Virus record (IMG/VR): IMGVR_UViG_3300013104_000038
Location: 1-42,516 of that record
DNA length: 42,516 nucleotides
Source of the DNA: a virus
Strand: one strand, 5' to 3'
The translations under genes and the position numbers were made by a program. A model generated the notes under the pieces. The model had not been told where the DNA came from, made no database searches, and worked only from the letters and a program-made list of their open reading frames with translations. Of this stretch, positions 5,809 to 33,554 are shown one piece after another (positions within the stretch are counted from its first letter, which is position 1; each line of letters begins with the position of its first letter).

Positions 5809-7069
5809 AGATCCCTTCGTCCATTTCTTCGACGGCATCCAGGGCGTCCTCGGCTACCTCGGAAGCGGCTGGTATCCCAGCGGCGCCCGGGACGGCATGG
5901 CGCCCTTTCGTTCCGTCGGCTCCGACTCCGGCGTGCAGGTCAGCTCCGGCGCCGCGCTACAAGTGGCAGCCGTCTACGCCTGCGTGCGGCTGATCTCCGA
6001 GACGGTCGCGACGCTGCCGCTGGAGCTGAAGCAGCCGGACGCCGCCGGGAAGCTGGTCAAGGCCACCAGCAGCCCCGTGTACCGCATGCTCCGGTACTCG
6101 CCGAACGCCTACATGACGGCGGTTGAGTTCTGGGAAATGATGGTCGCTTCGTTGTGCCTATGGGGCAATGCCTACGCGGTCAAGGTGCGCGTCGCCGGCC
6201 GCGTCGTGGCGCTCGATCCGCTACGCCCCGAGTTTGTGACGGTTTACCGGGAGATGGCAACGGGGCAAATCCGTTACGCCTATCTGCGGGGCAACCAGCG
6301 CCAGGAGTTCCCGGCGAGCGACATTCTGCATATCAAGGGCTTCGGCGTGGATGGCCTCGTGGGCCTCTCGCCGATCGCGATGGCCCGGCAGACCATCGGT
6401 CGCTCGATTGCAACCGACCAAGCCAGCGGCAAGGTCTTCGGCTCGGGGCTGTCGGCCGGCGGCTTCATCACCTATGAAAAGTCCTTCACGACGCCAGAGC
6501 TGCGGGAGGACGTGCGCAAGTCGATCGAGCAGTTCACGGGCAGCTCCAACGCCGGCAAGACGATGGTGCTGGAGAACGGCATGGGGTATACCCCCATCAC
6601 TATGAACCCGGTCGACGCCCAGATGCTCGAATCTCGGCTGTTCAATGCCGAGGAAGTGTGCCATTGGTTCGGCACGCCGCCACCGCTCGCGGGCTACATG
6701 TCGAAGGCCAGCTCATGGGCGTCCAGCCTCGAAACGCTGATCCTGCTCTGGATCAAGACGGGCCTGCGGGCCTACCTGACCCGCATCGAGCAATCGGTCT
6801 CGCGCGCGCTTGCGCTGCCGACGACGAGCGTGCTGGCCTTCGACCTCGACGAGCTGGAACGCGGCGACAGCGCGGCGCGGGCCGCGCTGTATTCGGGCGC
6901 GGCGCAGAACGGCTACATGACGCGCAACGAGATCCGCGCGAAGGAAGGCGACCCGGCGATCGAGGGCGCCGATGAACTGACCGTCCAGTCCAATCTGGTC
7001 CCCCTTTCAAAGCTGGGCGAACTCGGCGCCAAGCCGACCGCGCCGGCGCCCGGAGACGCGCTGCCATGA
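5798..7069 (+). CDS. Portal protein (HK97 family).
   Basis: 423 aa. Position and sequence character fit the Phage_portal family. Confidence 0.92.
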   Translation: MALKDPFVHFFDGIQGVLGYLGSGWYPSGARDGMAPFRSVGSDSGVQVSSGAALQVAAVYACVRLISETVATLPLELKQPDAAGKLVKATSSPVYRMLRYSPNAYMTAVEFWEMMVASLCLWGNAYAVKVRVAGRVVALDPLRPEFVTVYREMATGQIRYAYLRGNQRQEFPASDILHIKGFGVDGLVGLSPIAMARQTIGRSIATDQASGKVFGSGLSAGGFITYEKSFTTPELREDVRKSIEQFTGSSNAGKTMVLENGMGYTPITMNPVDAQMLESRLFNAEEVCHWFGTPPPLAGYMSKASSWASSLETLILLWIKTGLRAYLTRIEQSVSRALALPTTSVLAFDLDELERGDSAARAALYSGAAQNGYMTRNEIRAKEGDPAIEGADELTVQSNLVPLSKLGELGAKPTAPAPGDALP

Positions 7070-7734
7070 AGATGAAATTCCTCAATCAGGCCTTGGACCT
7101 GAAAGACGCCGAAGTCCAGGCCGACGGCACATTCTCCGGCTACGCCTCGATCTGGGGCGAGGTCGACAGCTACAACGAGGTCGTCGCCAAGGGCGCGTTC
7201 ACTGCATCGCTGAAGGATTACGCCAAGCGCGGTAAGATGCCGAACCTGCTCTGGCAGCACCGCTCGGACAAGCCCATCGGCGTGTGGCTGACGATGGTCG
7301 AGGACGCCAAGGGCCTGAAGGTCACCGGACGACTGGCGCTCGACACGGCGCAGGGCGCCGAAGCCTATGCGCTGCTCAAGCTGGGCGCCATCGACGGCCT
7401 CTCGATCGGGTACGTGGCCACGAAGTGGGAGGAAGATACCAAGACCGGCATCGTGACGCTGACCGAGATCAATCTCTGGGAAGTGTCGCTGGTCACTTTT
7501 CCCGCCGGCCCCGGCGCGCGGGTCGACGGGGTGAAAAATGCGTTGGAACATGGCAAGCTACCCACATTGAAGGATTTCGAGGCGTTCCTGCGAGATGAGG
7601 CAGGCTTCTCGAAAACTCAGGCCGCGGCCATCGCGGGCAAGGGCTTGAGCCACCTTCTACGTCAGCGTGAGGCTGACAGCCAGAACCGCGATCTGAAACT
7701 GGCCGACCTTCTGGCCGTCATCAACCCACGCTGA
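7066..7734 (+). CDS. Prohead maturation protease (HK97 / S78 family).
   Basis: The N-terminal region reads DGTFSGYASIWGEVDSYNEVVAKGAF...LWQHRSDKPIGVW. ATGA overlap with the portal gene. Confidence 0.9.
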   Translation: MKMKFLNQALDLKDAEVQADGTFSGYASIWGEVDSYNEVVAKGAFTASLKDYAKRGKMPNLLWQHRSDKPIGVWLTMVEDAKGLKVTGRLALDTAQGAEAYALLKLGAIDGLSIGYVATKWEEDTKTGIVTLTEINLWEVSLVTFPAGPGARVDGVKNALEHGKLPTLKDFEAFLRDEAGFSKTQAAAIAGKGLSHLLRQREADSQNRDLKLADLLAVINPR

Positions 7735-7744
7735 GGAAGCACTC

Positions 7745-9040
7745 ATGAACATTTTCAACCTTTTCGCCCTCGGCATCCGCCGCGGCGAGCAGTCCGGCAA
7801 GATCAAGCACACCGGCTACCGCGTCGGCCGCAAGGATGGCGTCGATCCCGAGCAGTTGAAGACCGCCCTCGCGGCCGCGCTGGAAAAGCGGGATGCCGAG
7901 ATCAAGGGCCTGGTCACCAAGTCGAACGAGGAAATCGAGAAGCTGGGTAAGGCCAGCAAAGAGACGATCGAGGCACTGCAAAAGGCGGCGACCGAGGGCG
8001 TGGCCCTGCGGGAGCGCCTGAATGGCGTCGAGCAGGAGATTGCCGAGATCAAGTCCATGAAGGGCACGGGCGACGCGCAGGCGCAGAAGTCGGCCGGCAC
8101 CCAGCTCTGCGAGTCCGAGGACTTCAAGAACTTCGCCGCGAAGGGCAAGGGTACGGCGGTCCTGCAGCTGAAGGCGGTCACCAGCGTCACCAGCGCCACG
8201 ACCGGCACGGGTGCTGCGGGCGGCGCCATCCAGCCGGATTGGCTGCCGGGCATCATCACGCCGGCGCTGCGCCCGTTCACCATCCGCGACCTGCTGATGC
8301 CGGGCCGCACCGGCTCGAACGTGGTGCGCTACGTTCGTGAGTCGGGCTTCCAGAACATGGCCGCCTCGGTGGCGGAAGCCGCGCTGAAGCCGCAGTCTGA
8401 TCTAAGCCTGACCCAGGTCGACACGGCAGTGAAGACCCTGGCCCATTGGCTGAAGGCGTCCAAGCAGATCCTCGCCGACGTGCCGATGCTGTCGAGCTAC
8501 ATCGACACCCGCCTGACCTACGGCCTGAAATATGTCGAGGAGACCCAGCTCTTGGCCGGCGACGGCACGGGCGAGAACCTGCTGGGTCTCATCCCGCAGG
8601 CGACCGCTTTCGACGACGCGCTGCGCTCGGCCGGCGACAACAAGATCGACACGTTGCGCAAGGCGATCCTGCAGGTCCGCATCGCCGAGTACCGCGCCAG
8701 CGGCATCGTGCTGAACCCGATCGACTGGGCGGATATCGAGCTGACCAAGAGCACCACGGGCGAGTACGTCTGGGTGAACGTCGGCACGGGCGCCAGCCCG
8801 CAGCTGTGGCGCTTGCCCGTCGTGGATACCAACGCGATCCCGGCCGGTCACTTCCTGGTCGGCGCGTTCAACATGGCGGCCCAGGTGTTCGACCGCGAAG
8901 ATGCCAACGTCCAAGTCTCGACCGAAGACGGCGACAACTTCGTCAAGAACATGGTGACGATCCGCGCCGAGGAGCGTCTGGCGCTGGTCGTGTACCGGCC
9001 GGAATCGTTCGTCTACGGTCCGTTCACCGCGGCCACCTGA
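7745..9040 (+). CDS. Major capsid protein (HK97 fold) with an N-terminal delta/scaffold-like coiled coil.
   Basis: 431 aa. Charged coiled-coil N-terminus followed by an HK97-type body. Position after the protease fits. Confidence 0.92.
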   Translation: MNIFNLFALGIRRGEQSGKIKHTGYRVGRKDGVDPEQLKTALAAALEKRDAEIKGLVTKSNEEIEKLGKASKETIEALQKAATEGVALRERLNGVEQEIAEIKSMKGTGDAQAQKSAGTQLCESEDFKNFAAKGKGTAVLQLKAVTSVTSATTGTGAAGGAIQPDWLPGIITPALRPFTIRDLLMPGRTGSNVVRYVRESGFQNMAASVAEAALKPQSDLSLTQVDTAVKTLAHWLKASKQILADVPMLSSYIDTRLTYGLKYVEETQLLAGDGTGENLLGLIPQATAFDDALRSAGDNKIDTLRKAILQVRIAEYRASGIVLNPIDWADIELTKSTTGEYVWVNVGTGASPQLWRLPVVDTNAIPAGHFLVGAFNMAAQVFDREDANVQVSTEDGDNFVKNMVTIRAEERLALVVYRPESFVYGPFTAAT

Positions 9041-23012: not shown

Positions 23013-24022
23013 TGTTCGCCATGGGTCCGGCCTTTTTCAATCGATCCTCCGCCTACGCCGCGCTGGCGGTCACCGGCACGTTCGCCGCAGCTACCGTTGG
23101 GGTGGCATACTCATCCAGCCTCCCGATCACGGGTGGTCTTGAGCCGTACTCGCTGACGGGCGGCACGGGCATTGCGTCCGGCTCGCTCGATACCGGCTTT
23201 GCGCTGTCGATCACCGGAACGACGGGGGCGCGCTTCCTGACGCTCGCCTGTGCCTCGCCAACGACGGCGGACACGATGAGCTTCACCGCTTCCGTTGACT
23301 CGGCGGACTCACAGTCGGTGACAAGTGCGCAGAGCGTGACGGTAGCTGCAAGCCCCACGGTGTCGCTTCTGCATTTCGATGGCACGAACGGCAGCACGAC
23401 GTTCACCGATGCAGTGGGGCACATCTGGACGCCGCTCGGCAGCGCGTCTATCAGCACGGCCCGATCGAAGTTCGGCAGCGCCTCGGGCCTGTTCCCGGGC
23501 AACGGGGCAATCAGTACGCCATACCATAGCGATTTCGATCTGCTGTCGGCGAGCGCTTCCACGGTGGAAGGATTCGTATATCAGACCACCGGGGGCGACC
23601 GTCGCATCTTCACGTTGGGGGGGTCGGTAACCGCGGCCAATAATACGACGGGGTATCATCTGCTCTTGCAAGTAAACTCCTTAGGCCAGTTCGTCGCGAC
23701 GGTATCCAACGGCACGAGTGCGCCCATCTCCTTCAATTCGGGAAGTGCGCATATCGTGGCGAACGCCTGGCAACACGTAGCGATGTGCATTGACTCCACT
23801 TCGATTCGCCTATACGCCGAGGGCAACCTATTGGGATCTACGTCATCGAGCACTATCGTGCGGCCCTCGGGAAATCCGCTGCCGAGCATTGGGCGTATTA
23901 CGTCGCAAGGCACGGGTAACGACTGGATCGGCAACATAGACGAGTTCCGCGTCACCAAGGGCGCCGCCCTTTACACGGGTAGCGCGTACACCGTGCCGAC
24001 CGCGCCGTTCACATATCCCTGA
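23012..24022 (+). CDS. LamG / concanavalin-A-like lectin-domain protein; putative receptor-binding or fibre protein.
   Basis: The Laminin_G_3-like pattern runs LLHFDGTNGSTTFTD...WQHVAMCIDSTSIRLYAEGNLLG...GNIDEFRVTKGAALY. The N-terminal half is Ser/Thr-rich. Confidence 0.7.
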   Translation: MFAMGPAFFNRSSAYAALAVTGTFAAATVGVAYSSSLPITGGLEPYSLTGGTGIASGSLDTGFALSITGTTGARFLTLACASPTTADTMSFTASVDSADSQSVTSAQSVTVAASPTVSLLHFDGTNGSTTFTDAVGHIWTPLGSASISTARSKFGSASGLFPGNGAISTPYHSDFDLLSASASTVEGFVYQTTGGDRRIFTLGGSVTAANNTTGYHLLLQVNSLGQFVATVSNGTSAPISFNSGSAHIVANAWQHVAMCIDSTSIRLYAEGNLLGSTSSSTIVRPSGNPLPSIGRITSQGTGNDWIGNIDEFRVTKGAALYTGSAYTVPTAPFTYP

Positions 24023-24031
24023 GCTTCCAGT

Positions 24032-25480
24032 TCACTTCCGGTATCGCCGCCCGCGCCAGCCGCCCTTTGCCTTGATCGGCCAACCGGCGGCCCAGGGCGG
24101 CATGACGTTCATCTCGGCCTCGAAGGCTTCGATCGAGCCGAAACCCTTGGGCACCTCGGAGGCGTTCTCGTCGTAGACATGCAGCACGACGGGATAGCCG
24201 GCGGCTTCGAGCCGGTGCTGCCCGTGGCGTAGGATGCGGTTGGCCGTCGCTTGGCAAGCATTTTCCAGCAGCTTGCCCGAGTACGTGGTCATCGCGCACC
24301 AGCCGTAGGCGCCCATCTTGGGGTTCGTATTGTACCCCTCGTAACTGATCTGCAGTCCGCGCCAGTCGTCCTTCCCCGGCTGCAGGCGCGGCCGATGGTA
24401 GGGGATATAGCTACCGTCCGGCAGGAACATGTAGAGCACGTCGTCATGCACGTACATCGTGAGCCCCGAGAACGCGCCGTCCAGGCGCATGACTGGGTAC
24501 TGCGTCTCGGGGTTCTGGATCGCTAGCACCGCCATCCCTTCCAGCCCATGCAGATACGGCACGCCCTTCCAAGGCGGCACGCCGTCAGCGCGCGCGCGGC
24601 ACCATTCCCATTCCTCGCCCGCATTGACCAAGCCGCCGACGGCTACCGCTGCTTGATGCCATGCGGCCGTCGACTGCGGGCAGCTCTGGCCGCCGCCGAG
24701 GAAGACGATGTTCGGGCTCGCGGCGCGCCAGCGCAGGATCAGATCGCGCGCTTCGTTGTCGTCGCCCTCGAAACCCATCGCGCGCAATGCGCCGATCCAG
24801 CCAAGGAAGCCCAGCGCCAGTTCGGTCACTTTGCCTTTCTTGCGCAGGGGATGGTGGTTGCCGGTGGTCTGCTTATATTCCAGCAGCTCGGCCAGCGGCA
24901 CCTTGAACGTCTCGGCCGCTGACGCTTCGTAAATCTTGCCATGCGTGCGGAATACGTCGATGCGCCACTGCTCGCCGGCCAGCATCGCGTTCACGACGGC
25001 CTCGATCGCCGAGTAGTCCGAGCAGATAAACTCGTGCTCCTCGTCGGTGCAGAGCAGCGAGCGGAGCGATCCGCCCATGACCGCCAGCGCATCGCCCCAG
25101 ATGCCCTCAACGAAGTCCAGGTCGCGCGTCGCAATCGCCGCCAGGCCATCCTCGGCCGCCGCCGCGTTCCATTCCTCGGCCTTGCTGGCCGGCCCGCGTA
25201 GCTGGAAGCACCACGGGCAGGCGACGCGCAGCGCGGGGTGCCAGTGGCCGCAATGGGCGCACTGGCGCACCTCGGGGCCGGAGTTCGGGAAATTGGTGGG
25301 CTGCGGCCCGCTACCCGTCGGACGGCCGGTTCTCGCGCCGTCCACGGTGAACAGGTCGTGCACCCGGTTGGCGGCGGTCATCTGGCCGCGCAACGCGTAG
25401 ACTTTCTTGACGCTGGCGCTCCCGACTGCCTGGCGGATCTCCAGCGCGCGAATGCAGGCTTTGAGGTCGGTTTGGTTCAT
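24032..25480 (-). CDS. DNA polymerase family A, polymerase (fingers/palm) fragment.
   Basis: Motifs seen: TGRPTGSGPQPTNFP; motif A ICSDYSAIEAVV; motif B RKKGKVTELALGFLGW; motif C VVLHVYDENASEV. No exonuclease domain. The ATG overlaps the MTase stop (ATGA). Confidence 0.9.
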   Translation of the reverse strand: MNQTDLKACIRALEIRQAVGSASVKKVYALRGQMTAANRVHDLFTVDGARTGRPTGSGPQPTNFPNSGPEVRQCAHCGHWHPALRVACPWCFQLRGPASKAEEWNAAAAEDGLAAIATRDLDFVEGIWGDALAVMGGSLRSLLCTDEEHEFICSDYSAIEAVVNAMLAGEQWRIDVFRTHGKIYEASAAETFKVPLAELLEYKQTTGNHHPLRKKGKVTELALGFLGWIGALRAMGFEGDDNEARDLILRWRAASPNIVFLGGGQSCPQSTAAWHQAAVAVGGLVNAGEEWEWCRARADGVPPWKGVPYLHGLEGMAVLAIQNPETQYPVMRLDGAFSGLTMYVHDDVLYMFLPDGSYIPYHRPRLQPGKDDWRGLQISYEGYNTNPKMGAYGWCAMTTYSGKLLENACQATANRILRHGQHRLEAAGYPVVLHVYDENASEVPKGFGSIEAFEAEMNVMPPWAAGWPIKAKGGWRGRRYRK

Positions 25481-25956
25481 GCGACGTAGCCTGGCAGCCC
25501 GCAGTCCCGCAACACCAGTGCGTTATACGTGCCGTAGGCAATCAAGACAATCGGGCCGCCGCTATTACCTTTGGCTTTCGTGCCGTCTTGGTGGCGGAAA
25601 TGCGGGCGCCCCTTTAGAAATAGCACCCCGGAAGCCCGGCCCCACACCGAGCGGTGAAAGCCAGCCGTATCGGTACGCGCGAAAGCAAGTGCGATGCCGT
25701 TGCCGTGCGCCGCCATCTTTTCAAGCCAAGGCCACGTATGTTCGCCAAACGGTGGATTGAGCCATACCCGACCGCTCCACTCGGCATGCAGGCCGTCCTC
25801 GGGCAGTTCGATATGACGCAGCGCAGTCGGCCAAGGCCTAGGACTTGGAGCCGCACACGGATCGAGGTCGAAGACACCGAGGGCATCCAAAATTTCAGGC
25901 GGCGTCAGCCATGTATGCGTCGCGGCAACTGGCCGATTTGCATAGGGGTGTTTCAT
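25477..25956 (-). CDS. DNA N6-adenine methyltransferase (phage Dam-like).
   Basis: FDLDPCA and VWLNPPFG motifs. 159 aa. GAGGAA lies upstream of the ATG. Confidence 0.82.
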   Translation of the reverse strand: MKHPYANRPVAATHTWLTPPEILDALGVFDLDPCAAPSPRPWPTALRHIELPEDGLHAEWSGRVWLNPPFGEHTWPWLEKMAAHGNGIALAFARTDTAGFHRSVWGRASGVLFLKGRPHFRHQDGTKAKGNSGGPIVLIAYGTYNALVLRDCGLPGYVA

Positions 25957-25967
25957 TCAGGTGTTCC

Positions 25968-26987
25968 TCAGAATGGAATCTCATTGTCATAATCGAAGTC
26001 AGGTAACGGCGCTCCCTCAGCGGGGGCGGCCTCCGCTCGGCCGAGTAGTGCGCGTAATTCTTGCAGCTTCCCCGTCACGTTCTCTTCGTCCAGCGAATCG
26101 ACGTAACACCCCTTCCCCGCAAGCCACCCGACGAGACGCTGCACCTCGGAGGCTTTCTTGACCGCGCCGCCGGTCAGCGCCGCCAGTTCGGCGTTGTAGC
26201 GTTCGAGCGCCTGCTCCAGCACGACGATGCAATTCTCGACGCCCGCGCGGTCCACCGGAATGCCGCGGCGATTGATCGCCAGGTCGAGCAGCCAGTAGGC
26301 GCGGCGGTCGGCGGGCATGTCGGGCGTCGCGGCGCTCACTTCGTCCTCGGCCAGCACGTCGCGGGCGTTGTACGAGTAGAGCCGCGGGCCATCGACCGGA
26401 TCTTCCTCGGGGCGGATGCGCTTGCGCGGATCTTTCTTGGTCGGCTTGCGCGGCACGCTGAACTTGTCGAGCAGGCGCTTGCCCTCGGCATCCTTTTGGT
26501 GCTCGATGCCCAGCACGTCGCCGACGTCGGCCAGGGCAGGCGGCAGCGACCACGCGCGGGCCTTACCCATCGAACAATAGAGCTGCGCCGGGTCGATGCG
26601 CGGGAAGCCGTGCTTTGGCACCGCGACGTGCTCCCAGATCCACAACTCGAACTTGGCGCCATGTGCCTCGATCTCGCCGCCGTTGCCGATGTGATTGCAG
26701 AAGTCCGCCGGCAACGGTTGGCCCGGTAGCCAGAGCCGAGGGCCGGCGCCATCTTTCAGGTCGTAGACCATCGAGAGGATTTCCGTCGTCGGGTGCTGCG
26801 CGTAGACCGCCGCCCCGACCGCGGGCAACCCGCCGCGGCCCTTCGCGGCGGTCGCCGTCTTGAGCCACTTGCCGTCGGCTTCCGACCACTCGAAACCCGC
26901 CTCGCTGTACGTCTCCAAGTCGAAACTCGGGCGCACCGTCGAGTAGCCGAGCCCGACGCGAAGTTTGGTGCCGGCGAGATGGGTCAT
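25968..26987 (-). CDS. DNA polymerase family A, 3'-5' exonuclease (N-terminal) fragment with an SSB-like acidic C-terminal tip.
   Basis: ExoI is FDLETYSE, ExoII-like is HGAKFELWIW, and ExoIII is YNARDVLAED (Yx3D). The protein ends ...PLPDFDYDNEIPF. Confidence 0.85.
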   Translation of the reverse strand: MTHLAGTKLRVGLGYSTVRPSFDLETYSEAGFEWSEADGKWLKTATAAKGRGGLPAVGAAVYAQHPTTEILSMVYDLKDGAGPRLWLPGQPLPADFCNHIGNGGEIEAHGAKFELWIWEHVAVPKHGFPRIDPAQLYCSMGKARAWSLPPALADVGDVLGIEHQKDAEGKRLLDKFSVPRKPTKKDPRKRIRPEEDPVDGPRLYSYNARDVLAEDEVSAATPDMPADRRAYWLLDLAINRRGIPVDRAGVENCIVVLEQALERYNAELAALTGGAVKKASEVQRLVGWLAGKGCYVDSLDEENVTGKLQELRALLGRAEAAPAEGAPLPDFDYDNEIPF

Positions 26988-27190
26988 GCTCCAACCTCGG
27001 CAGCATCGCGAACCGAAGCGTCGATTTCAGCCCCCATCGCCTTCGCGAGCCGACAGATATGCAATGCGGCTTCGGTACGAAAAATAACGCGAATGTCGGC
27101 GGACGCCTCGCATCCGACACGCTCGCCGGAATTAAGCGCTTCAAAAAGCGCATTCTGCAATCGAGCCTCCCAGCTACGCGTCAGAGCCAT
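26984..27190 (-). CDS. Hypothetical protein (68 aa).
   Basis: ATGA overlap with the exonuclease gene start. Confidence 0.5.
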   Translation of the reverse strand: MALTRSWEARLQNALFEALNSGERVGCEASADIRVIFRTEAALHICRLAKAMGAEIDASVRDAAEVGA

Positions 27191-27401
27191 ACGGAAGCAA
27201 TCCTTCGTAAAGTGAGCGCATCGCCAGGCGGTCGATCAGCGTCGGTTCCTTGGCGATGCGGCGGTAGAACGTCCCGTTCGGTAGCCCCAGTTCGCGGCGG
27301 GCGTCGGCATGCGTGTAGGCGCTCTCAGCCATCCAGCGCGCCCACTCGGGATGCACTGGCCGCTCGATGCGCACCTTCGGGACGATGAGTTCGATGGTCA
27401 A
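27174..27401 (-). CDS. Small HTH-like protein. Start uncertain (TTG at 27401 or an internal ATG).
   Basis: RRELGLPNGTFYRRIAKE resembles a helix-turn-helix. Confidence 0.5.
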   Translation of the reverse strand: MTIELIVPKVRIERPVHPEWARWMAESAYTHADARRELGLPNGTFYRRIAKEPTLIDRLAMRSLYEGLLPYGSDA

Positions 27402-27577
27402 AACGGGCAGTCGTCAGGGTGGAGCGCGGCCAGCCGATCTTCAACGCGTTTTTGCATGCGCCGCGCAACCTCACGGGCGTGCGGGTGCGCATCTTCGGCT
27501 TGGGCGAGACTAGCTTCATCGCGCCAGAGTTTCAGTTCGACCAGTTCTTTCAATACCGCTTGCGGCAATTGCGCCAT
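27398..27577 (-). CDS. Hypothetical protein (59 aa), below the ORF-track cutoff.
   Basis: The ATG at 27577 lies 1 nt after the upstream stop. Translation: MAQLPQAVLKELVELKLWRDEASLAQAEDAHPHAREVARRMQKRVEDRLAALHPDDCPF. Confidence 0.5.
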   Translation of the reverse strand: MAQLPQAVLKELVELKLWRDEASLAQAEDAHPHAREVARRMQKRVEDRLAALHPDDCPF

Positions 27578-27578
27578 C

Positions 27579-27947
27579 TCAATTCTCCAAGTCCGTGCGG
27601 TACACGAATACCTTCAGGCCCATGCGTTCTGCGGTGGCGATCATGTGGCGCGTGCCGGGGCTCTTTCCGTCCCACACGGCAATGAGCGCATCGGCATAGA
27701 CGGCCATTTGCAAGTTGCGCTGCCGGCCGGCAGCTTTCCCATAGCGCTTCCAGTCGGCGGGGAACTGGCGGACGGGGCGCCCGCGGCATCGCGCCCATTC
27801 TTCGCCGAGCTGATCCGGGCCGTCGGCGCAACCACTGACCACTTCGGTGATGCTGCCGCCCCAATGAGACCCGGTAATTGCACGAACGACAGTTCCGAAT
27901 CGCTTCTCGGCGCGGCTACCGGCGATGATGGTTTTCATTCGCGCCAT
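27579..27947 (-). CDS. DUF2493-like (SLOG superfamily) protein.
   Basis: IIAGSR...VVSGCADGPDQLGEEWA...FPADWKRYGKAAGRQRN...WDGKSPGTRHMI matches my recollection of DUF2493. Confidence 0.6.
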   Translation of the reverse strand: MARMKTIIAGSRAEKRFGTVVRAITGSHWGGSITEVVSGCADGPDQLGEEWARCRGRPVRQFPADWKRYGKAAGRQRNLQMAVYADALIAVWDGKSPGTRHMIATAERMGLKVFVYRTDLEN

Positions 27948-28135
27948 TTGCCCGTGACGGAATTGAAGTTTTGCAGCTCGCGTTTGAGCTGGCGTAGCGC
28001 GCGGGGGCCGACTTCCGCCATCCGTAGTCGTCCGGCGGCGAGTTCAGCAGCGTACCGCGTCGCTTGGTCGGCACGACGGATCGTAGCCTGCGCTTCATCC
28101 CATGCTTCTTGAATCTGAAACCAATTCAGGCTCAT
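27935..28135 (-). CDS. Hypothetical protein (66 aa).
   Basis: GGAG lies 9 nt upstream of the ATG. Confidence 0.6.
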   Translation of the reverse strand: MSLNWFQIQEAWDEAQATIRRADQATRYAAELAAGRLRMAEVGPRALRQLKRELQNFNSVTGKWRE

Positions 28136-28152
28136 GGCGTGTTGCTCCGTCT

Positions 28153-28185
28153 GAAAGAAGCACCCGGCTCATCGCGAGCCGGGTG
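28153..28185 (-). terminator. Rho-independent terminator/attenuator after the SSB-like gene.
   Basis: On the minus strand: CACCCGGCTC-gcgat-GAGCCGGGTG (10-bp stem) followed by CTTCTTTC. Confidence 0.6.
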
Positions 28186-28201
28186 AAGTGCCGCCGCCCA
28201 A

Positions 28202-29074
28202 TTACGCCTGCATCATCCCGTGCTGGACGAGCAGTTCGTCGGTCCACTGGCCGGTCGCCATGAACGCCTCGTAGGTCGCACCCTGCGCGGCCGGCAGCAT
28301 CACGCGTTGCTTGGCGACGGGCGGTGTCGGAATGGCCGGCGGCCCGGCGAGGATCGCGGTGTGCGGCACGGTCGGCACCGGAGTGGCGGGCGCTGCGGGA
28401 GCCGCCGGGGGCGTCGGTGCGGCTCCGGGTACGGCGGGGGCATTGAGCGCCGGCGCCGGCGTGGTGGTCGCGCCCGGCGGCAGCGCGGCCTGGCCGAAGC
28501 CGACGCTCGTCGGATCGGGGCCGACGTAGATTTCCGGGCCGAAGCCGCTGTGCGCGACGAATTGATGATTGATGTAGATGCCTGGCTGCTGCGCGCTACC
28601 GTTGCCGTCCACGTTGCACAGCACCTCGACGTAATGGCCGAGCTTGATCGTTGCTGGGTCGACCGGGGCGCTGCCGTTGGCGGTCAGCGTCTTGGGCGCG
28701 AAGCCGCTGCCGAGACGAACGATGAAGTTGCCCGGGAAGCCCTCGCGATCGCAGGGCTTGTTGCCCTTCGTGTTCGGCACGGTCGAGTCGCCATCCTCGA
28801 TCTTCCAGGCGAACTTCGGCGACTGGCATTGGTTCGGGAAGGCGGCCTGGCCGACGGCGAGGATCTTCGCGCCCCACGGCGTATCCCACCAGTTCGCAGC
28901 GCCATTCTTCGGCACGGCGACGGCGAAAAAGTAATTCGTCCGCGGCTGGCCGGTCTGCGGGCCGCTCTTGATGAGTAGCGGGTTGCCATCCGCGTCGGTG
29001 GTCTGCGGTTCGGTCAGCGAGCCCATGACGAGGCGGCCGACGGGGAGGAGTACGTCTGTCTTGTGATTGCTCAT
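28202..29074 (-). CDS. ssDNA-binding protein candidate (DUF2815-like) with a Pro/Ala-rich linker and an extra C-terminal domain.
   Basis: Synteny fits: next to a DUF2800-like nuclease and PolA. The N-terminal 190 aa or so are family-like (from recollection). A PA-rich stretch of about 60 aa follows. No acidic C-terminal tail. Confidence 0.6.
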   Translation of the reverse strand: MSNHKTDVLLPVGRLVMGSLTEPQTTDADGNPLLIKSGPQTGQPRTNYFFAVAVPKNGAANWWDTPWGAKILAVGQAAFPNQCQSPKFAWKIEDGDSTVPNTKGNKPCDREGFPGNFIVRLGSGFAPKTLTANGSAPVDPATIKLGHYVEVLCNVDGNGSAQQPGIYINHQFVAHSGFGPEIYVGPDPTSVGFGQAALPPGATTTPAPALNAPAVPGAAPTPPAAPAAPATPVPTVPHTAILAGPPAIPTPPVAKQRVMLPAAQGATYEAFMATGQWTDELLVQHGMMQA

Positions 29075-30189
29075 TGTCCGAATACCTTTTTAGTGGCGGT
29101 GAAGTCCATCGGCACGAGTTTGATCGCGCCTTTTGGACGGTCAGTGTATTGGCTAATGACGGACTCGTCAATACCAAGTTTGCGAGCGGCGGCGATGCCG
29201 ATCGGTTGCGGCGGGGCGCGCAGATCCTTGCCGAACAGATCGCCCAACGTGAACAACTCGGACACGTCGCCGATCCAACGTTCCCGCGGCTTCGTCGAGT
29301 CAAGCGCAAAGCCCGGAACGTGTTGGCCTTTCAGCAGCGCCTTGATGAGTTGTTCCTCCAAGCCGGTCGCCATTGCGGTGAGTTGGCCCTGCGCACGTTG
29401 GACGAGCGCGAGATAACGCGCGGCTTCCGACAGGCTCAGATCGAAGGGAACGGAAGTCCCCGCCACTGCGCAAGCGTCCATTCCCGCTGCCTGCGCAGCG
29501 TCGCATCGAGTACGCGCTCGACAATCTCGGCAATTATCCGGCGTTGCAGTCGTTGCAGCCCCCGGTGCGAGAGCGGCAGCGGCAGCACCTTGAAGTCGAT
29601 TGATGAGAGGTCGAAGATCGGACCCCTTGCACTCCCAGGCTCGAATGGGCCCGCTGCGATGGAAACTGCGGGGCTGAATGATATGGAAGCGCACTCGGAC
29701 GAGCTGGTCCCCGAGCCCGTCGAGAAGTGCGAGACGGTCGGCGGCGTAGCAGATGAGTTGCTCATTCTCGAAGACCTCCACGTAGCGATGGCCATACTTA
29801 TAATCAAAGACGTCGAGGATATTGCCCTCGAAGTGATCGGCGTCCGGCGTGCCCCAGCAAGCCTCATGGATCGCCCCGCCAAGCGTGCGTTGCTCGACGT
29901 GCTCGGGAGCCTTGCCGAGCACGCCGCGAATATAGCCGACGTACAACTCCGCGCCGTCCCGCATCTCGACGTCGATGACGACGCCATTGGGCGCCACTTC
30001 GCCAACGTCCGGTAGCCAACCGGCGACGAGAAGCATCTGGCAGACCCAATGCGCCGCGTGCCCCTGGCGGACGTCCTCGCTCTCTTCGTCCTCGGGGATG
30101 GCGGCCTCTACCGCCACGCTGCCGGCGCACGGCGCCGGGCCACCCCAGCGATGCGCGGCGCTCGGCTGTAACACCGCGTGGTCAGCCAT
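29071..30189 (-). CDS. PD-(D/E)XK nuclease with a Cas4-like Fe-S cysteine motif (DUF2800-like).
   Basis: LQPSAAHRWGGPAPCAGS at the N-terminus plus C-terminal CRDCRARTRC (Cx2Cx5C). I chose the internal ATG at 30189, which overlaps the upstream stop. Confidence 0.7.
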   Translation of the reverse strand: MADHAVLQPSAAHRWGGPAPCAGSVAVEAAIPEDEESEDVRQGHAAHWVCQMLLVAGWLPDVGEVAPNGVVIDVEMRDGAELYVGYIRGVLGKAPEHVEQRTLGGAIHEACWGTPDADHFEGNILDVFDYKYGHRYVEVFENEQLICYAADRLALLDGLGDQLVRVRFHIIQPRSFHRSGPIRAWECKGSDLRPLINRLQGAAAAALAPGAATTATPDNCRDCRARTRCDAAQAAGMDACAVAGTSVPFDLSLSEAARYLALVQRAQGQLTAMATGLEEQLIKALLKGQHVPGFALDSTKPRERWIGDVSELFTLGDLFGKDLRAPPQPIGIAAARKLGIDESVISQYTDRPKGAIKLVPMDFTATKKVFGQ

Positions 30190-30889
30190 CGACGTGCTCC
30201 AGGGATTCGATGGGCACCCACCGGTTCTCGATGAACGCCAAGATCGGCGACTCACCATCGGCCGCGGCGTCCTCGGTGAGAGCGAACTCCCGGCCGATTA
30301 AGGCGTCCATCTCGTCCATCCAGCCGCCCCAAAGTGCGCGACGGACGACGCGAACCTTATCGCCGGCTTTGAACGCGCGCGGCTCGCTCTCAGGTTCGCA
30401 CGCGCGCTCGGCCATCTCGCGGGCAACCTCAGCCTGCATTTCCAGCGATGCGCGACGCTCCGCACGGATCAGCCGATCCAGCTCGCAGAGCGCCAGCGCG
30501 ATGCCCTTGGTCAGCTCTTTCTTGCGGTCATCGGGGCTGGGCTTCCACCCGCGCCGGTCCCAATTTTCGGGCCAGTAGGCGCCGGCGTCTCGAATGAGGT
30601 AGCAGGCTGCCGCATCCGCCAACTCGCCGTCGATGTAGAGATCGTCCCGCTCCTCGCTGAAGCCCTTGACGTTGCGGATGCGGCCGACCTCAGCGGTGGC
30701 CAGGTCGATCGCGGTCAGCTCCGGCATCGGCTCGCCCGGTTCGATGAGCTTGGCGCCCATCGCCGCGTCGAGCGCAGCGCGGCCTTTCAAGCCGAGCATG
30801 AGAGCGCCTTGGACGCGCTCGGCCGCGGCTTCGTCTTGCGTTTCCATGGCTTGCAGCAAAAAGTCCAGCCTCTCGGTATCGGTGCGCAT
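30182..30889 (-). CDS. Hypothetical protein (235 aa).
   Basis: GGGAG lies upstream of the ATG at 30889, which sits 1 nt after the preceding stop. Confidence 0.6.
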   Translation of the reverse strand: MRTDTERLDFLLQAMETQDEAAAERVQGALMLGLKGRAALDAAMGAKLIEPGEPMPELTAIDLATAEVGRIRNVKGFSEERDDLYIDGELADAAACYLIRDAGAYWPENWDRRGWKPSPDDRKKELTKGIALALCELDRLIRAERRASLEMQAEVAREMAERACEPESEPRAFKAGDKVRVVRRALWGGWMDEMDALIGREFALTEDAAADGESPILAFIENRWVPIESLEHVDG

Positions 30890-30890
30890 C

Positions 30891-31733
30891 TCAGGCTCCC
30901 AGCGTGTCGAGGATTTTCTGCCACATGTCGGGGCGCGCGTTGACCGTGTGCAGGCCATCCGGGAAACCCAGTTCGGCCAGTTTCACCGAGAGCACATTGC
31001 CGCTCAGGGTGCCTGCCGTCACGGCCTTACCGATACGCGACGCGACGACGCCGAAGGTTAGCGCCGGGGGGCCGGGCGGCAGCGGCGGGGCCGACGGTGC
31101 GGGAACAGGCGCTCCATTGGCCGGAGCTTCCGCCCGCGTCACAGGGACGTTCGGTGCGGGAACCTGACCGCGCAGTTGCGCTTCGACCTCGGCGACCAGT
31201 TCCGGGGCGACGTTGCGCTTCATCCGCCAGCTGCCGTCGGCGATCTTGGCGCGATTGCCCGAATGAATGCGCTCGTCCCACGGCAGGCCGTTCTTATCCG
31301 TTTCGACCGAGCCGGGCGGGGGCGGCGGCGCCACGGAAGAAACAAGCGGAGCCGCGGGGGCAGTCATAGATGGTGCGGCAGCCGCAGGGGCCAAAGGGAG
31401 GTCGGTCGGCTCCGCACCCGGCGGCAACGGCTGGGCGCCAGCAGGCAGCGGCTGCTTGCCGAACTGCGGGTTCTCGGCTTCGAGCTTGGCGAGCGTTTCG
31501 GCTTCGACCAGCTCGACTTCCAGTTTCTCGCCGACGCTTTCGAGGACGTCAAGGCGGCCGACCGCGCGCTTGAACTTCTCCAGTTCGAGGATCGCGTTGT
31601 CGGAGTTGACGCGCAGCTCCAAGTTTACTTCTCCGACCTTGGAGGGCTTGCCGGCGTAGGCGCTCAGGGCGGCAACGCAGCGGTTGATCTGCTCGGGCGT
31701 TTCGTTGCCGTGCAGTGTGATCTCGAATTGCAT
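30891..31733 (-). CDS. Hypothetical protein with Pro/Ala-rich linkers and a GLPWDERIH motif.
   Basis: AAGGAGA lies 6 nt upstream of the ATG. First gene of the leftward replication operon. Confidence 0.7.
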   Translation of the reverse strand: MQFEITLHGNETPEQINRCVAALSAYAGKPSKVGEVNLELRVNSDNAILELEKFKRAVGRLDVLESVGEKLEVELVEAETLAKLEAENPQFGKQPLPAGAQPLPPGAEPTDLPLAPAAAAPSMTAPAAPLVSSVAPPPPPGSVETDKNGLPWDERIHSGNRAKIADGSWRMKRNVAPELVAEVEAQLRGQVPAPNVPVTRAEAPANGAPVPAPSAPPLPPGPPALTFGVVASRIGKAVTAGTLSGNVLSVKLAELGFPDGLHTVNARPDMWQKILDTLGA

Positions 31734-31760
31734 CTGACTCTCCTTGCGTGGGCTTGGGTG

Positions 31761-31789
31761 TTGACGGATGCTGACGGTACTCGCATACT
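31761..31789 (+). promoter_or_regulatory. Sigma70-like promoter for the rightward helicase operon.
   Basis: TTGACG (31761-31766), 17-nt spacer, CATACT (31784-31789). Confidence 0.55.
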
Positions 31790-31803
31790 ATCGGCACTGT
31801 CAA
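31774..31803 (-). promoter_or_regulatory. Candidate leftward promoter, interdigitated with the rightward one.
   Basis: Minus strand: CCTATTGACA (-35 at 31803-31798), 18-nt spacer, TACCGT (31779-31774). The -10 is weak. Confidence 0.35.
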
Positions 31804-31814
31804 TAGGGTTATTT

Positions 31815-33554
31815 ATGCCAACGCTCCGACCGTACCAGCAGCAACTCGAAGACGATGTTGACGCCGCTTGGTCTCGCGGCGCGCGAGTCGTGATGGCTAT
31901 CGCTCCGACAGGGGCAGGCAAGACCATAACTTTCACCAATATCCTCGCTCGCGAACGCGGCGCCTCCGCCGCCATCGCGCATCGACGGGAGCTGGTCACA
32001 CAGATGAGCTTGGCACTCGCGCGCAACGGCGTGAGGCACCGCGTCATCGGGCCGAAGTCGGTAGCGCGGGATGCAGCAAGTATCCACCTCGACGAGTTGG
32101 GCCGCAGCTATATCGACCCCAACGCCCGCTGTGGCGTGGTCGGCATTGACTCACTCCCCGGTCTCAACGAACGAGACCCTTGGCTCGGTCAGGTGCAGAC
32201 GTGGGTCGGCGACGAGGGGCATCATTTCCTGCGCGAGAACAAATGGGGCCGCGGTATCGCCATGTTCCCCAATGCCCGGGGGTTGCTGGTCACGGCGACG
32301 GGCTTCCGGTCGGACGGCTGCGGGCTCGGCCGAGGCGTGTTATTGCCGTCGGGCAAGTGGAGCAACGATGGCTTGGCGGACGCGCTGGTCGAAGGGCCGA
32401 CGATGCGCCAGCTGATCGAGATGGGCTATCTGACGGATTACCGTGTCGTCGCGCCGCCAAGTGATGTGGACTACTCCGACGTACCCGTGACGGCGATGGG
32501 CGACCTCTCGCCCGCGAAGCTGCGCGCGGCGGTGCATCGCTCGACGCGGATCGTCGGGGATGTGGTGAAGCATTACCTGAAGTTCGCGGCCGGCAAGCGC
32601 GGGGTGACCTTCGCCGTCGACGTGGAAGCCGCGACCGAGATTGCCAAGGCGTATAACGCGGCGGGGGTACCGGCGGAAGTCGTCAGCGCCAAGACGCCGG
32701 ATTTATTGCGCCAGCGCATCCTCTCGCGCTTCCGGCGCGGCGAATTGCTGCAGCTGGTCAATGTCGATCTGTTCGGCGAAGGCTTCGATTTGCCAGCGAT
32801 CGAGGTCGTGTCGATGGTGCGCAAGACGGAGAGCAAAGGTCTGTTCGACCAGCAGTTCGGCCGGGCGCTGCGGCTCATGGTAGCCGACGAGCATATGGCA
32901 CGTTGGGATACCTACGACGATGCGCAGCGACGGGCGGTTATCGCGGCATCGGGTAAGCCCAAGGCGCTCATCATCGACCACGTTGGTAACGTCGAGCGGC
33001 ATCGGCCGCCGGACGCGATCCGCTTCCATACGCTCGACCGACGCGAGCGCCGCGCCAAGCCGAAGCCCGGCGACGAGATCCCGCTGCTGACCTGCTTGAA
33101 CCCCGAGTGCCTGGCGCCCTATGAACGCTGCCAGCCCGCATGCCCCTACTGCGGCGCGAGGCCGCTGCCAAGCAACCGCACGGCCCCCGAGTATGTGGAC
33201 GGCGACCTGGCCGAGTTGGACCCGGCGGCGCTGGCTGCGCTGCGCGGTGAGGTCGCGCGGATCGACGGCGCAGCACGCGTGCCGGTCGGATTGGAGGGGC
33301 CGGCGGCGCAGGCGGTCAAGAATCGCCATGTCGAGCGGCAGCATGCGCAGAATGAGATGCGGGCGGCGTTGGCGCTCTGGGCCGGGCGGCGGCGCGACAC
33401 GGGCCAAGGCGACTCGGAGATCATGCGGCGCTTCTACCATACCTTCGGCTGCGACGTGCTGAGCGCGCAAGCGTTGGGCCGCGCCGAGGCCGAATTGCTC
33501 CATGCGCGAATTGTGGAACGAAACGCTATTGACGGCACCGTCAGCGCGGAGTAA
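31815..33554 (+). CDS. SF2 DEAD/DEAH-box helicase with a C-terminal zinc ribbon.
   Basis: Motif I is APTGAGKT and motif II is VGDEGHHF. Also CLNPECLAPYERCQPACPYCG. The true start is the ATG at 31815; the longer track ORF overlaps the divergent gene. Confidence 0.88.
   Translation: MPTLRPYQQQLEDDVDAAWSRGARVVMAIAPTGAGKTITFTNILARERGASAAIAHRRELVTQMSLALARNGVRHRVIGPKSVARDAASIHLDELGRSYIDPNARCGVVGIDSLPGLNERDPWLGQVQTWVGDEGHHFLRENKWGRGIAMFPNARGLLVTATGFRSDGCGLGRGVLLPSGKWSNDGLADALVEGPTMRQLIEMGYLTDYRVVAPPSDVDYSDVPVTAMGDLSPAKLRAAVHRSTRIVGDVVKHYLKFAAGKRGVTFAVDVEAATEIAKAYNAAGVPAEVVSAKTPDLLRQRILSRFRRGELLQLVNVDLFGEGFDLPAIEVVSMVRKTESKGLFDQQFGRALRLMVADEHMARWDTYDDAQRRAVIAASGKPKALIIDHVGNVERHRPPDAIRFHTLDRRERRAKPKPGDEIPLLTCLNPECLAPYERCQPACPYCGARPLPSNRTAPEYVDGDLAELDPAALAALRGEVARIDGAARVPVGLEGPAAQAVKNRHVERQHAQNEMRAALALWAGRRRDTGQGDSEIMRRFYHTFGCDVLSAQALGRAEAELLHARIVERNAIDGTVSAE

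What the first reader, a model, noticed from the sequence alone, without database searches (positions are those of the whole stretch)
24032..26987. Family-A DNA polymerase split into exonuclease and polymerase ORFs by a Dam-like methyltransferase gene
**What the sequence shows**
- The exonuclease motifs sit in ORF 25968..26987: ExoI is FDLETYSE, ExoII-like is KFELWIW, and ExoIII is YNARD.
- The polymerase motifs sit in ORF 24032..25480: TGR...PTNFP, DYSAIE, RKKGKVTELALGF and VYDENASE.
- Between them lies a 159-aa N6-adenine methyltransferase gene (FDLDPCA, NPPFG).
- That gene has its own GAGGAA ribosome-binding site, 11 nt after the exonuclease stop, and an ATGA overlap into the polymerase ORF.

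**Inference**
- The polymerase is therefore probably made as two polypeptides that must associate.
- A DNA-modification enzyme would be co-translated with them.
- This could record a gene insertion (a mobile MTase) into an ancestral single pol gene. It could also be a functional arrangement coupling replication with methylation.
Basis: partly seen in the sequence, partly recalled or inferred. Interest (0 to 1): 0.62.

Follow-up and report, generated by a model that had tools for sequence, protein, structure and literature searches.

The report
Two-piece phage DNA polymerase with cargo slot
This soil phage encodes its DNA-copying enzyme as two separate genes with a DNA-methylase gene lodged in the gap; close relatives have the enzyme in one piece or carry other genes in the same gap, and the proofreading piece ends in a peptide that copies the docking tail of bacterial single-strand-binding protein.

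Summary
On the minus strand lie three ORFs:
- 25968-26987, the proofreading exonuclease half (339 aa)
- 25477-25956, a Dam-like methyltransferase (159 aa)
- 24032-25480, the polymerase half (482 aa)

They are in three different frames, with a GAGGAA ribosome-binding site and an ATGA overlap. The same 2956 bases are 100% identical in contigs from five independent assemblies, so this is not an assembly error.

The nearest relatives (88% DNA identity, 91-94% protein identity) have a single 795-797-aa gene. In the window, 626 nt replace 64 nt of an exposed loop between the two domains.

Other close relatives are split in the same loop but carry different cargo:
- an N6/N4 methylase
- a 201-aa protein of unknown function
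- small ORFs
- nothing at all

So the gap is a recombination-prone cargo slot, and the methylase is only one occupant.

An added finding is that the exonuclease half ends in ...DFDYDNEIPF, which copies the bacterial SSB C-terminal tip (DDDIPF). Such tails recur in at least three lineages of split exonuclease fragments. In two distant relatives the phage's own Gp2.5-like SSB carries the tail instead.

Exo/pol fission of family-A polymerases is already published (Czernecki 2023; OM43 phages). This scan has also noted methylase-bearing split polymerases and SSB-type tails on other DNA. The finding is therefore a new variant of a known kind.

The parts
25968..26987 (-). Gene for the 3'-5' proofreading exonuclease subunit (339 aa) of a split family-A DNA polymerase
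   Evidence: ORF found. phrog_17 positions 674-912, E = 5.7e-24. It aligns with residues 1-313 of the unsplit 797-aa relatives at 91-93% identity. The ExoI, ExoII and ExoIII residues lie on invariant columns.
25971..26048 (-). C-terminal extension of the exo subunit (LLGRAEAAPAEGAPLPDFDYDNEIPF): an Ala/Pro/Gly-rich linker followed by an SSB-Ct-like acidic tip, DFDYDNEIPF (25971-26000)
   Evidence: The unsplit relatives have no counterpart. It is the only ORF in the window ending in an acidic ...IPF. Similar tips occur on other split exo fragments and on Gp2.5-like SSBs of L158 and L160.
25457..26082 (-). The 626-nt segment that replaces 64 nt of the inter-domain linker of unsplit relatives. 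It holds the exo tail, stop codon, RBS, methylase gene and the first 8 codons of pol.
   Evidence: blastn against L005: window 26987-26083 matches 6001-6905 and window 25456-24032 matches 6970-8394, both at 88% identity.
25964..25969 (-). GAGGAA ribosome-binding site overlapping the exo stop codon TGA (25968-25970), 7 nt upstream of the methylase ATG
   Evidence: Sequence read.
25477..25956 (-). Cargo gene: Dam-like N6-adenine DNA methyltransferase (159 aa; FDLDPCA, NPPFG)
   Evidence: phrog_111 at 5.7e-37. PF05869 scores 26.1 bits against a cut-off of 28.1. 6759 homologues were found, most of the 120 listed carry PF05869, and the nearest is 79% identical. dN/dS is 0.12 against the L063 copy.
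25477..25480 (-). ATGA overlap: the methylase stop codon overlaps the pol start codon (translational coupling)
   Evidence: Sequence read.
24032..25480 (-). Gene for the polymerase subunit (482 aa). It carries the TGR motif, a CxxC...CxxC zinc ribbon, and motifs A, B and C.
   Evidence: phrog_10285 at 3.6e-44 and phrog_17 positions 947-1232. 94% identical to residues ~316-797 of the unsplit P0001. The catalytic residues are invariant.
27579..30258 (-). Upstream genes on the same strand, part of the replication module: YAcAr/SLOG protein (27579-27947), Gp2.5-like ssDNA-binding/annealing protein (28202-29074, no acidic tail), and DUF2800 PD-(D/E)XK exonuclease (29071-30258)
   Evidence: Pfam and PHROG hits. 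Relatives show the same gene order.

Best explanation
**Shown**
- The window is a complete 42.5-kb phage genome with direct terminal repeats.
- Its family-A replicative DNA polymerase has undergone gene fission exactly in the exposed loop between the proofreading and polymerase domains.
- Two proteins are encoded: a 339-aa exonuclease subunit and a 482-aa polymerase subunit.

**Inferred**
- The two subunits re-associate through the native domain interface into one enzyme.
- The new intergenic gap behaves as a recombination-prone cargo slot.
  - In this phage it holds a Dam-like N6-adenine methyltransferase gene.
  - That gene is expressed from the same transcript through its own GAGGAA site.
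  - It passes ribosomes to the pol gene through an ATGA overlap.
- The likely consequence is that methylase and polymerase are made together, so new phage DNA is methylated and presumably protected from restriction.
- The methylase is an exchangeable passenger. It is not a part of the polymerase, and it is not necessarily the cause of the split.
- The exo subunit has gained a flexible C-terminal tail tipped by an SSB-type docking peptide (...DFDYDNEIPF). I infer this tail is functional. It most likely tethers the subunit to the pol subunit or to another partner that reads SSB tails.
For: **Fission is real**
- The three ORFs are in three frames, and both junctions were read directly.
- The arrangement is identical in five independent assemblies.
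- No Rfam intron was found.
- No promoter or terminator lies inside 23800-27600.

**The split is derived**
- The nearest relatives P0001, P0002 and P0007 are single 795-797-aa genes.
- About 90% of 94 family loci are unsplit.
- In the window, 626 nt replace 64 nt of the linker.

**The break is structurally permissive**
- The AlphaFold2 model of the unsplit P0001 has pLDDT 93.6 and pTM 0.91.
- The break falls in coil 313-320, between helices 301-312 and 321-334, in the lowest-confidence block of the model.
- The model has the Klenow fold, TM 0.62-0.66 normalised by target length.

**Both halves are functional**
- All catalytic residues are invariant.
- dN/dS is 0.10-0.19 against unsplit relatives.

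**The gap is a cargo slot**
- At the same loop:
  - L006 and L008 hold a 201-aa phrog_12600 protein.
  - L011-13 hold a PF01555 N6/N4 methylase (177 bits).
  - L014 holds an 83-aa ORF.
  - L015 holds a 69-aa ORF.
  - L070 holds a 78-aa ORF.
  - L069 holds a PAPS-reductase-like gene.
  - L067 holds nothing.
- In L063 a 79%-identical Dam-like gene sits upstream of exo.
- The exo and pol trees disagree, and split and unsplit forms interleave inside a 100/99 clade.

**The tail**
- Acidic ...[IVT]PF ends occur on 6 of about 29 split exo fragments, against 7 of 6068 other ORFs (Fisher p = 1e-11, or 4e-7 counting lineages).
- The same tip occurs on Gp2.5-like SSBs of L158 and L160.
- DDDIPF is the conserved SSB-Ct docking motif (PMC5872125).
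Against: - No experiment shows that the two polypeptides associate, or that the enzyme is active.
- No multimer structure prediction was available.
- Methyltransferase activity and target site are unknown. The Pfam and NCBIfam scores are below the curated cut-offs.
- Most split relatives of the other junction type (...ELKEKLGE) and all unsplit relatives lack any IPF tail, so the tail is not required for the polymerase to work.
- The tail could be a by-product of the recombination that made the junction.
- The order of events (fission first, or insertion first) is not resolved.
Confidence: 0.8

Rival explanations
1. Adaptive coupling. The methylase is placed inside the polymerase operon because methylation has to be stoichiometrically or physically coupled to replication, for example as a third replisome subunit. 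On this view the split exists to accommodate it.
For: - Translational coupling on both sides of the methylase gene.
- Cargo at this and the neighbouring split site is enriched in DNA-modification genes: the Dam-like gene, a PF01555 methylase, and two PAPS-reductase-like genes.
Against: - The slot also holds small unrelated ORFs, or nothing (L014, L015, L070, L067).
- A 79%-identical methylase lies outside the split in L063.
- Homologues sit in unrelated contexts, for example after a VRR-NUC gene in L064.
- The closest relative, L005, is unsplit and has no Pfam-recognisable methylase in the 14-kb locus examined.
Confidence: 0.15
2. The interruption is removed at the RNA or protein level, by a self-splicing intron, an intein or translational bypass, so that a single full-length polymerase is made.
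For: - Introns and inteins are common in phage polymerase genes.
- Inteins do occur in relatives: in motif B of the L067 pol, and in the L006 helicase.
Against: - There was no Rfam hit in 23500-27500 apart from one weak, unrelated match (Chlorobi-1 sRNA, E = 0.074, 19 bits against a gathering score of 50) at 27442-27490, outside the insert.
- Only 11 non-coding nucleotides lie in the insert.
- The three ORFs are in three frames, which excludes an intein.
- The exo ORF has a conserved, selected tail and its own stop codon. The pol ORF has its own start codon.
- A bypass of 626 nt has no precedent.
Confidence: 0.02
3. The polymerase gene has been inactivated by the insertion and is decaying, and the phage replicates with host enzymes.
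For: An insertion into an essential gene is normally disruptive.
Against: - Both halves keep every catalytic residue.
- dN/dS is 0.10-0.19.
- The genome is found identical in five samples.
- Many relatives keep intact split halves.
Confidence: 0.03

Closest known systems
Exo/pol gene fission in S-SBP1-like T7-like cyanophage family-A polymerases (Czernecki et al., NAR 2023, PMC10201439)
   Same: [quoted passage not shown]
- The break lies between the domains, with solvent-exposed new termini.
- The complex is predicted to keep the native architecture.
   Different: - It is a different PolA subfamily. The family here has a zinc ribbon between the TGR motif and motif A, and sits in a DUF2800 / Gp2.5-like module.
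- The published fission arose by a frameshift with overlapping genes and no cargo.
- Here 626 nt with a methylase gene occupy the gap.
- Here the state is polymorphic among relatives that are 77-94% identical.
- Here the exo subunit has gained an SSB-type tail.
[quoted passage not shown]
   Same: A phage PolA split with an inserted ORF that is not a recognisable homing endonuclease.
   Different: - There the cargo is unknown and the authors suspected an intron.
- Here the cargo is an identifiable methylase, and an intron is excluded.
- Here relatives document many alternative cargos and an empty slot.
'Fractured genes' (Dassa et al., NAR 2009, PMC2677866), and the split gp43 and nrdA genes of T4-related phages (from my own knowledge)
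   Same: An essential replication gene is broken into two ORFs by an intervening free-standing gene.
   Different: No split intein lies at this junction, and the intervening gene is not a homing endonuclease, so neither trans-splicing nor homing explains the arrangement.
Bacterial SSB C-terminal tip (SSB-Ct, DDDIPF; PMC5872125), and the acidic Phe-terminated tails of T7 gp2.5 and gp4 that dock on T7 DNA polymerase (PMC12339929 for the T7 SSB-polymerase interplay; tail details from my own knowledge)
   Same: A flexible linker followed by acidic residues and a terminal ...IPF at the extreme C-terminus of a replication protein.
   Different: - The carrier here is the proofreading half of a split polymerase, not an SSB.
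- The binding partner is unknown.

Membership tests
Family A DNA polymerase (Pol I / T7 gp5 type) | Polymerase motifs A (D..E), B (R...K) and C (DE), plus the TGR motif | tested here: met
   DYSAIE, RKKGKVTELALGF, VYDE and TGR are present. The corresponding columns D470, E475, R528, K532, D752, E753, G367 and R368 are invariant, and T366 is nearly invariant, in 86 sequences.
Family A DNA polymerase (Pol I / T7 gp5 type) | Pfam PF00476 above its gathering score | tested here: not met
   27.9 bits against a cut-off of 34.3, and only motif A is matched. NCBIfam pola scores far below its cut-off. This is a divergent subfamily.
Family A DNA polymerase (Pol I / T7 gp5 type) | Klenow-like fold (exo plus palm, fingers and thumb) | tested here: met
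   The AF2 model of the unsplit relative has pLDDT 93.6. Foldseek gives probability 1.00 and target-normalised TM 0.62-0.66 to the Klenow and Bst large fragments, and the top hit is phage G20c Pol I.
DEDDy 3'-5' proofreading exonuclease | ExoI (DxE), ExoII (D) and ExoIII (Yx3D) carboxylates | tested here: met
   D23 and E25, Y206 and D210 are invariant. ExoII carries an invariant Glu (FE, E114) instead of Asp throughout the family. Activity was not tested.
Dam-like phage N6-adenine methyltransferase (PF05869 / TIGR01712) | Curated profile cut-off | tested here: not met
   PF05869 scores 26.1 against 28.1. TIGR01712 scores 22 against 97. However, phrog_111 hits at 5.7e-37, and most of the 120 listed homologues carry a PF05869 hit.
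Dam-like phage N6-adenine methyltransferase (PF05869 / TIGR01712) | Catalytic (D/N)PP(Y/F) motif and the FxLDPxA AdoMet-region motif | tested here: met
   WLNPPFG and FDLDPCA are present.
Dam-like phage N6-adenine methyltransferase (PF05869 / TIGR01712) | Methylation of adenine in DNA | not testable with these tools
   This needs SMRT or nanopore methylation calling, or an enzyme assay.
Fractured gene with split intein and homing endonuclease (Dassa 2009) | Split-intein halves at the junction, and a homing-endonuclease gene between them | tested here: not met
   The exo half ends in ...NEIPF and the pol half begins MNQTDLK, with no intein blocks. The cargo is a methylase.
Self-splicing group I/II intron carrying an ORF | A structured ribozyme core flanking the ORF | tested here: not met
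   No Rfam match in or beside the insert; the only match at E <= 1 in 23500-27500 is a weak, unrelated sRNA hit (Chlorobi-1, E = 0.074, far below its gathering score) at 27442-27490. Only 11 nt of the insert are non-coding.
Exo/pol gene fission of PolA (Czernecki 2023) | Adjacent exo and pol genes that together cover an uninterrupted homologue, broken at an exposed inter-domain site | tested here: met
   Shown by the alignment to the unsplit P0001. The break lies in coil 313-320, the lowest-pLDDT block.
SSB-Ct-type docking tail | An acidic run ending in (I/V)PF at the extreme C-terminus, after a low-complexity linker | tested here: met
   The tail reads ...GRAEAAPAEGAPLPDFDYDNEIPF*. For comparison, the SSB of L037 ends ...GMDDVPF.
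SSB-Ct-type docking tail | Binding to an SSB-Ct pocket of a partner protein | not testable with these tools
   This needs peptide binding assays or multimer modelling.

The most novel reading that the evidence does not exclude
The SSB-type tail (...DFDYDNEIPF) on the exonuclease subunit is a functional docking peptide.

- A family-A polymerase cannot carry such a tail on its own C-terminus, because in this family that end is a conserved basic RYRK motif.
- Splitting the gene creates a free C-terminus at the end of the proofreading domain.
- The tail could then clip the exo subunit to the pol subunit, in the way the T7 gp2.5 tail docks on T7 polymerase.
- Alternatively, it could plug the phage replisome into the host proteins that read SSB tails.
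- If so, gene fission would be adaptive rather than merely tolerated.
Probability: 0.3. Interest if true: 0.62.

Novelty: new variant of a known kind. Interest (0 to 1): 0.45.

Why it matters
- **A natural test series.** Near-identical phages carry the same replicase as one protein, as two proteins, or as two proteins with different passenger genes. This is a ready-made system for asking how an essential multi-domain enzyme tolerates fission, and how a new intergenic site becomes a hotspot for accessory genes, largely DNA-modification genes.
- **A testable handle on replisome assembly.** The recurrent SSB-type tail on the freed proofreading subunit points to how split replisomes are held together or wired into host machinery.
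- **An annotation lesson.** Exo-only and pol-only ORFs in this family should be annotated as subunits of one enzyme.

Tried and rejected
- **Intron:** the Rfam scan of 23500-27500 at E <= 1 found no intron and nothing in or beside the insert, only one weak unrelated sRNA match at 27442-27490.
- **Internal promoter or terminator:** none found.
- **Donor of the tail.** I tested whether the exo tail was copied from the 3' end of an ssb gene lying upstream of a donor methylase. Only 1 of 43 methylase loci (L037) has an SSB immediately upstream. L067 has the tail without any cargo. This origin is therefore not supported.
- **Identity of the 201-aa cargo of L006 and L008 (phrog_12600, which contains a PPCQ motif).**
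  - No Pfam or NCBIfam hit.
  - BLASTP against a phrog_757 methylase-like protein is not significant, E = 0.65.
  - The AlphaFold2 model from a 3-sequence alignment is unusable, pLDDT 36.
  - Its function remains unknown.
- **Solved structures:** the Dam-like protein has no sequence match in the PDB.
- **DNA-level search of GenBank phages:** only short methylase matches at about 66% identity and one polymerase fragment, so there is no close cultured relative.
- **Host:** not identified. MAG contigs carrying relatives have mixed labels and look like phage contigs binned with bacteria.
Full report
**1.

The ORF list shows three minus-strand ORFs.

| ORF | Coordinates | Length |
|---|---|---|
| Exonuclease half (exo) | 25968-26987 | 339 aa |
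| Methyltransferase | 25477-25956 | 159 aa |
| Polymerase half (pol) | 24032-25480 | 482 aa |

- The three ORFs are in three different frames: the start positions differ by 1031 and 1507 nt.
- The first junction reads ...GAGATTCCATTC-TGA-GGAACACCTGA-ATG. The spacer is 11 nt and GAGGAA overlaps the stop codon.
- The second junction reads ...GTCGC-ATGA-ACC, with stop and start overlapping.
- PHROG places the exo ORF on positions 674-912 and the pol ORF on positions 947-1232 of one DNA-polymerase profile, phrog_17. The middle ORF hits phrog_111, 'DNA methyltransferase', at 5.7e-37.
- Pfam scores are just below the curated cut-offs: Dam 26.1 against 28.1, and DNA_pol_A 27.9 against 34.3. Both proteins are therefore divergent members of their families.
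- The window is a complete virus record with direct terminal repeats.
- The same 2956 bases occur at 100% identity on contigs from five different samples and assemblers. This removes the assembly-error or frameshift explanation.

**2. The split is derived and recent**

- Annotated phages with about 40-45% identity (Shewanella SppYZU01, Stenotrophomonas B2, Acinetobacter Scuro) have one gene of 778-806 aa.
- In the large protein collection, the closest relatives of the pol half are full-length:
  - P0001, 94% identical, 797 aa
  - P0002, 90% identical, 795 aa
  - P0007, 78% identical, 797 aa
- Their contigs show a single gene in the same neighbourhood: DUF2800 nuclease, Gp2.5-like protein, YAcAr protein, polymerase, then convergent tail genes.
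- At the DNA level:
  - window 26987-26083 matches L005 6001-6905
  - window 25456-24032 matches L005 6970-8394, both at 88% identity
  - 64 nt of L005 are therefore replaced by 626 nt in the window
- Of the 80 best IMG/VR loci and 14 MAG contigs of the family, about 90% are unsplit.

**3. Where the break lies**

- An AlphaFold2 model of the unsplit P0001, built from 86 sequences, has pLDDT 93.6 and pTM 0.91.
- It shows helix 301-312, coil 313-320, then helix 321-334. The 311-320 block has the lowest confidence in the protein, 75.
- Exo homology in the window ends at ...ELRA, near residue 313. The pol ORF begins at about residue 316.
- The cut is therefore in the exposed inter-domain loop.
- Foldseek confirms a Klenow-type fold, with probability 1.00 and TM 0.62-0.66 normalised by the target.
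- All exonuclease and polymerase catalytic residues are invariant in the alignment.
- dN/dS of each half against unsplit relatives is 0.10-0.19. Both halves are under purifying selection.
- There is no Rfam intron, no room for one (11 non-coding nt), and no intein is possible across different frames.
- No promoter-like or terminator-like site lies within 23800-27600. The three genes are most simply one transcription unit.

**4. The gap is a cargo slot, not a methylase-specific arrangement**

Close relatives (77-94% identical) are split in the same loop with different contents.

| Locus | Content of the gap |
|---|---|
| L006, L008 | 201-aa phrog_12600 protein of unknown function |
| L011-L013 | 310-aa PF01555 N6/N4 methylase (177 bits) |
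| L014 | 83-aa ORF |
| L015 | 69-aa phrog_27185 ORF |
| L070 | 78-aa ORF |
| L069 (a more distant relative, 43% identical exo) | PAPS-reductase-like gene |
| L067 | nothing, only a 14-nt spacer |

- In L063, a 79%-identical copy of the window's methylase lies immediately upstream of the exo gene, while the phrog_12600 gene occupies the split.
- Other homologues of the methylase sit in unrelated contexts.
- Trees of the two halves place all these phages in one clade (100/99), with split and unsplit forms interleaved.
  - The window's pol groups with the unsplit L005 and with the differently split L014 (100/97).
  - The pol of L070 groups with L006 and L015 (100/100), although its exo junction is of the window's type.
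- The two halves therefore have different histories, which indicates recombination at the junction.
- A second split site, after the zinc ribbon, behaves the same way: L076 has about 2 kb of small ORFs, L068 has a PAPS-reductase-like gene, and L098 is also split there.

**5. The added finding: an SSB-type tail**

- The window's exo subunit carries 26 residues with no counterpart in unsplit enzymes: LLGRAEAAPAEGAPLPDFDYDNEIPF.
- The tip resembles the conserved SSB C-terminal hexapeptide DDDIPF (PMC5872125).
- Other split exo fragments end in the same way:
  - L067/P0245: ...CEDEDFIPF
  - L070/P0244: ...GEQDTTPF
  - P0254: ...SPIGDIPF (split after the zinc ribbon)
  - P0260: ...DLDDDVPF
  - P0266: ...TLDDDVPF
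- That is 6 of about 29 distinct fragments, in at least three lineages.
- The background rate is 7 of 6068 other ORFs of at least 80 aa in all fetched loci. Fisher p is 1e-11, or 4e-7 when only lineages are counted. The lineages are not fully independent.
- Of the 7 background ORFs, three are single-strand-binding proteins:
  - a classical SSB in L037
  - two homologues of this phage's own Gp2.5-like protein, L158 (...RTDDIPF) and L160 (...LDDNIPF)
- In the window's clade the Gp2.5-like protein ends ...GMMQA, without a tail.
- The exo ORF is the only ORF in the window with such an end.
- The tail is not universal. The other junction type (...ELKEKLGE) lacks it.
- I infer that the tail is a selected docking peptide. 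Its partner is untested: it could be the pol subunit by analogy with T7 gp2.5 and gp5, or host proteins that read SSB-Ct.

**6. Comparison with what is known**

- Exo/pol fission of family-A polymerases was reported for S-SBP1-like T7-like phages and called the first case in PolAs. It came with a predicted native-like complex (PMC10201439).
- OM43 phages have a polymerase split by a small unknown ORF (PMC10580990).
- A cyanophage lineage also has a split polymerase (10.1101/325100).
- 'Fractured genes' involve split inteins and homing endonucleases (PMC2677866). Neither is present here.
- This scan has already recorded methylase-bearing split polymerases and SSB-type tails on various phage replication proteins in other genomes. 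I treat those notes as leads only.
- New here:
  - a different PolA subfamily
  - population-level polymorphism: one piece, two pieces, or two pieces with at least seven cargo states
  - evidence for recombination at the junction
  - an SSB-type tail on the freed proofreading subunit

**7. Verdict**

The two polypeptides and the single-gene ancestor hold. The methylase is a passenger rather than the cause, and specific coupling is unproven.
- This is a new variant of a known kind, of moderate interest.
- The most novel reading that the evidence does not exclude is that fission is exploited to attach an SSB-type docking tail to the replicase.

Noticed in passing
L067:4999-7305: The pol gene of this cargo-free split relative is 768 aa because an intein of about 290 aa sits inside motif B. 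The sequence reads GKVTELA | CFTAETQ...LIVHN | CGFLGW.
   Followed up: partly
proteins P0249, P0252, P0257: These exo plus N-terminal pol fragments end about 100 residues into an intein-like sequence that starts right after the TGR motif (TGR|C(I/L)AEG...). They may be N-halves of split inteins, that is, true 'fractured' polymerase genes in the same family.
   Followed up: no
L076:6224-8208; L098; L068:4282-4995: The family has a second fission site, just after the zinc ribbon. It is also used as a cargo slot: L076 holds about 2 kb of five or six small ORFs, and L068 holds a PAPS-reductase-like gene. In L068 the upstream fragment ends in ...GDIPF.
   Followed up: partly
window 24032-25480 (pol residues ~74-91); P0001 C389, C392, C403, C406: An invariant CxxC...CxxC zinc-ribbon-like insertion lies between the TGR motif and motif A of this PolA subfamily. 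It is modelled as short strands. Its function is unknown.
   Followed up: no
L158:4106-4987 and L160:3850-4881: Gp2.5-like (Enc34-type) ssDNA-binding proteins of two distant, unsplit relatives end in bacterial-SSB-like tips, RTDDIPF and LDDNIPF. The homologue in the window's clade ends in GMMQA.
   Followed up: partly
L063:606-1088: A 79%-identical copy of the window's methylase lies upstream of the exo gene, with an ATGA overlap into it. This shows that the same cassette moves between intergenic sites of the replication module.
   Followed up: yes
L006:1-95 (919-aa helicase) and window 31176-33554: The helicase of L006 carries an intein (Hom_end_hint). The window's helicase ORF is 792 aa as listed from the first possible start codon, against 581 aa in L005 and L009. 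I did not check whether that reflects an N-terminal extension or simply a later true start.
   Followed up: no
L015:3375-4004: A 209-aa phrog_757 'DNA methyltransferase'-like gene lies immediately upstream of the exo gene in this relative. It is a further DNA-modification gene placed next to the polymerase.
   Followed up: no
L026:4965-7619: In a locus fetched for its methylase, an unrelated family-A polymerase of about 880 aa has an N-terminal UDG-like region and ends in ...GESGYTIPF.
   Followed up: no
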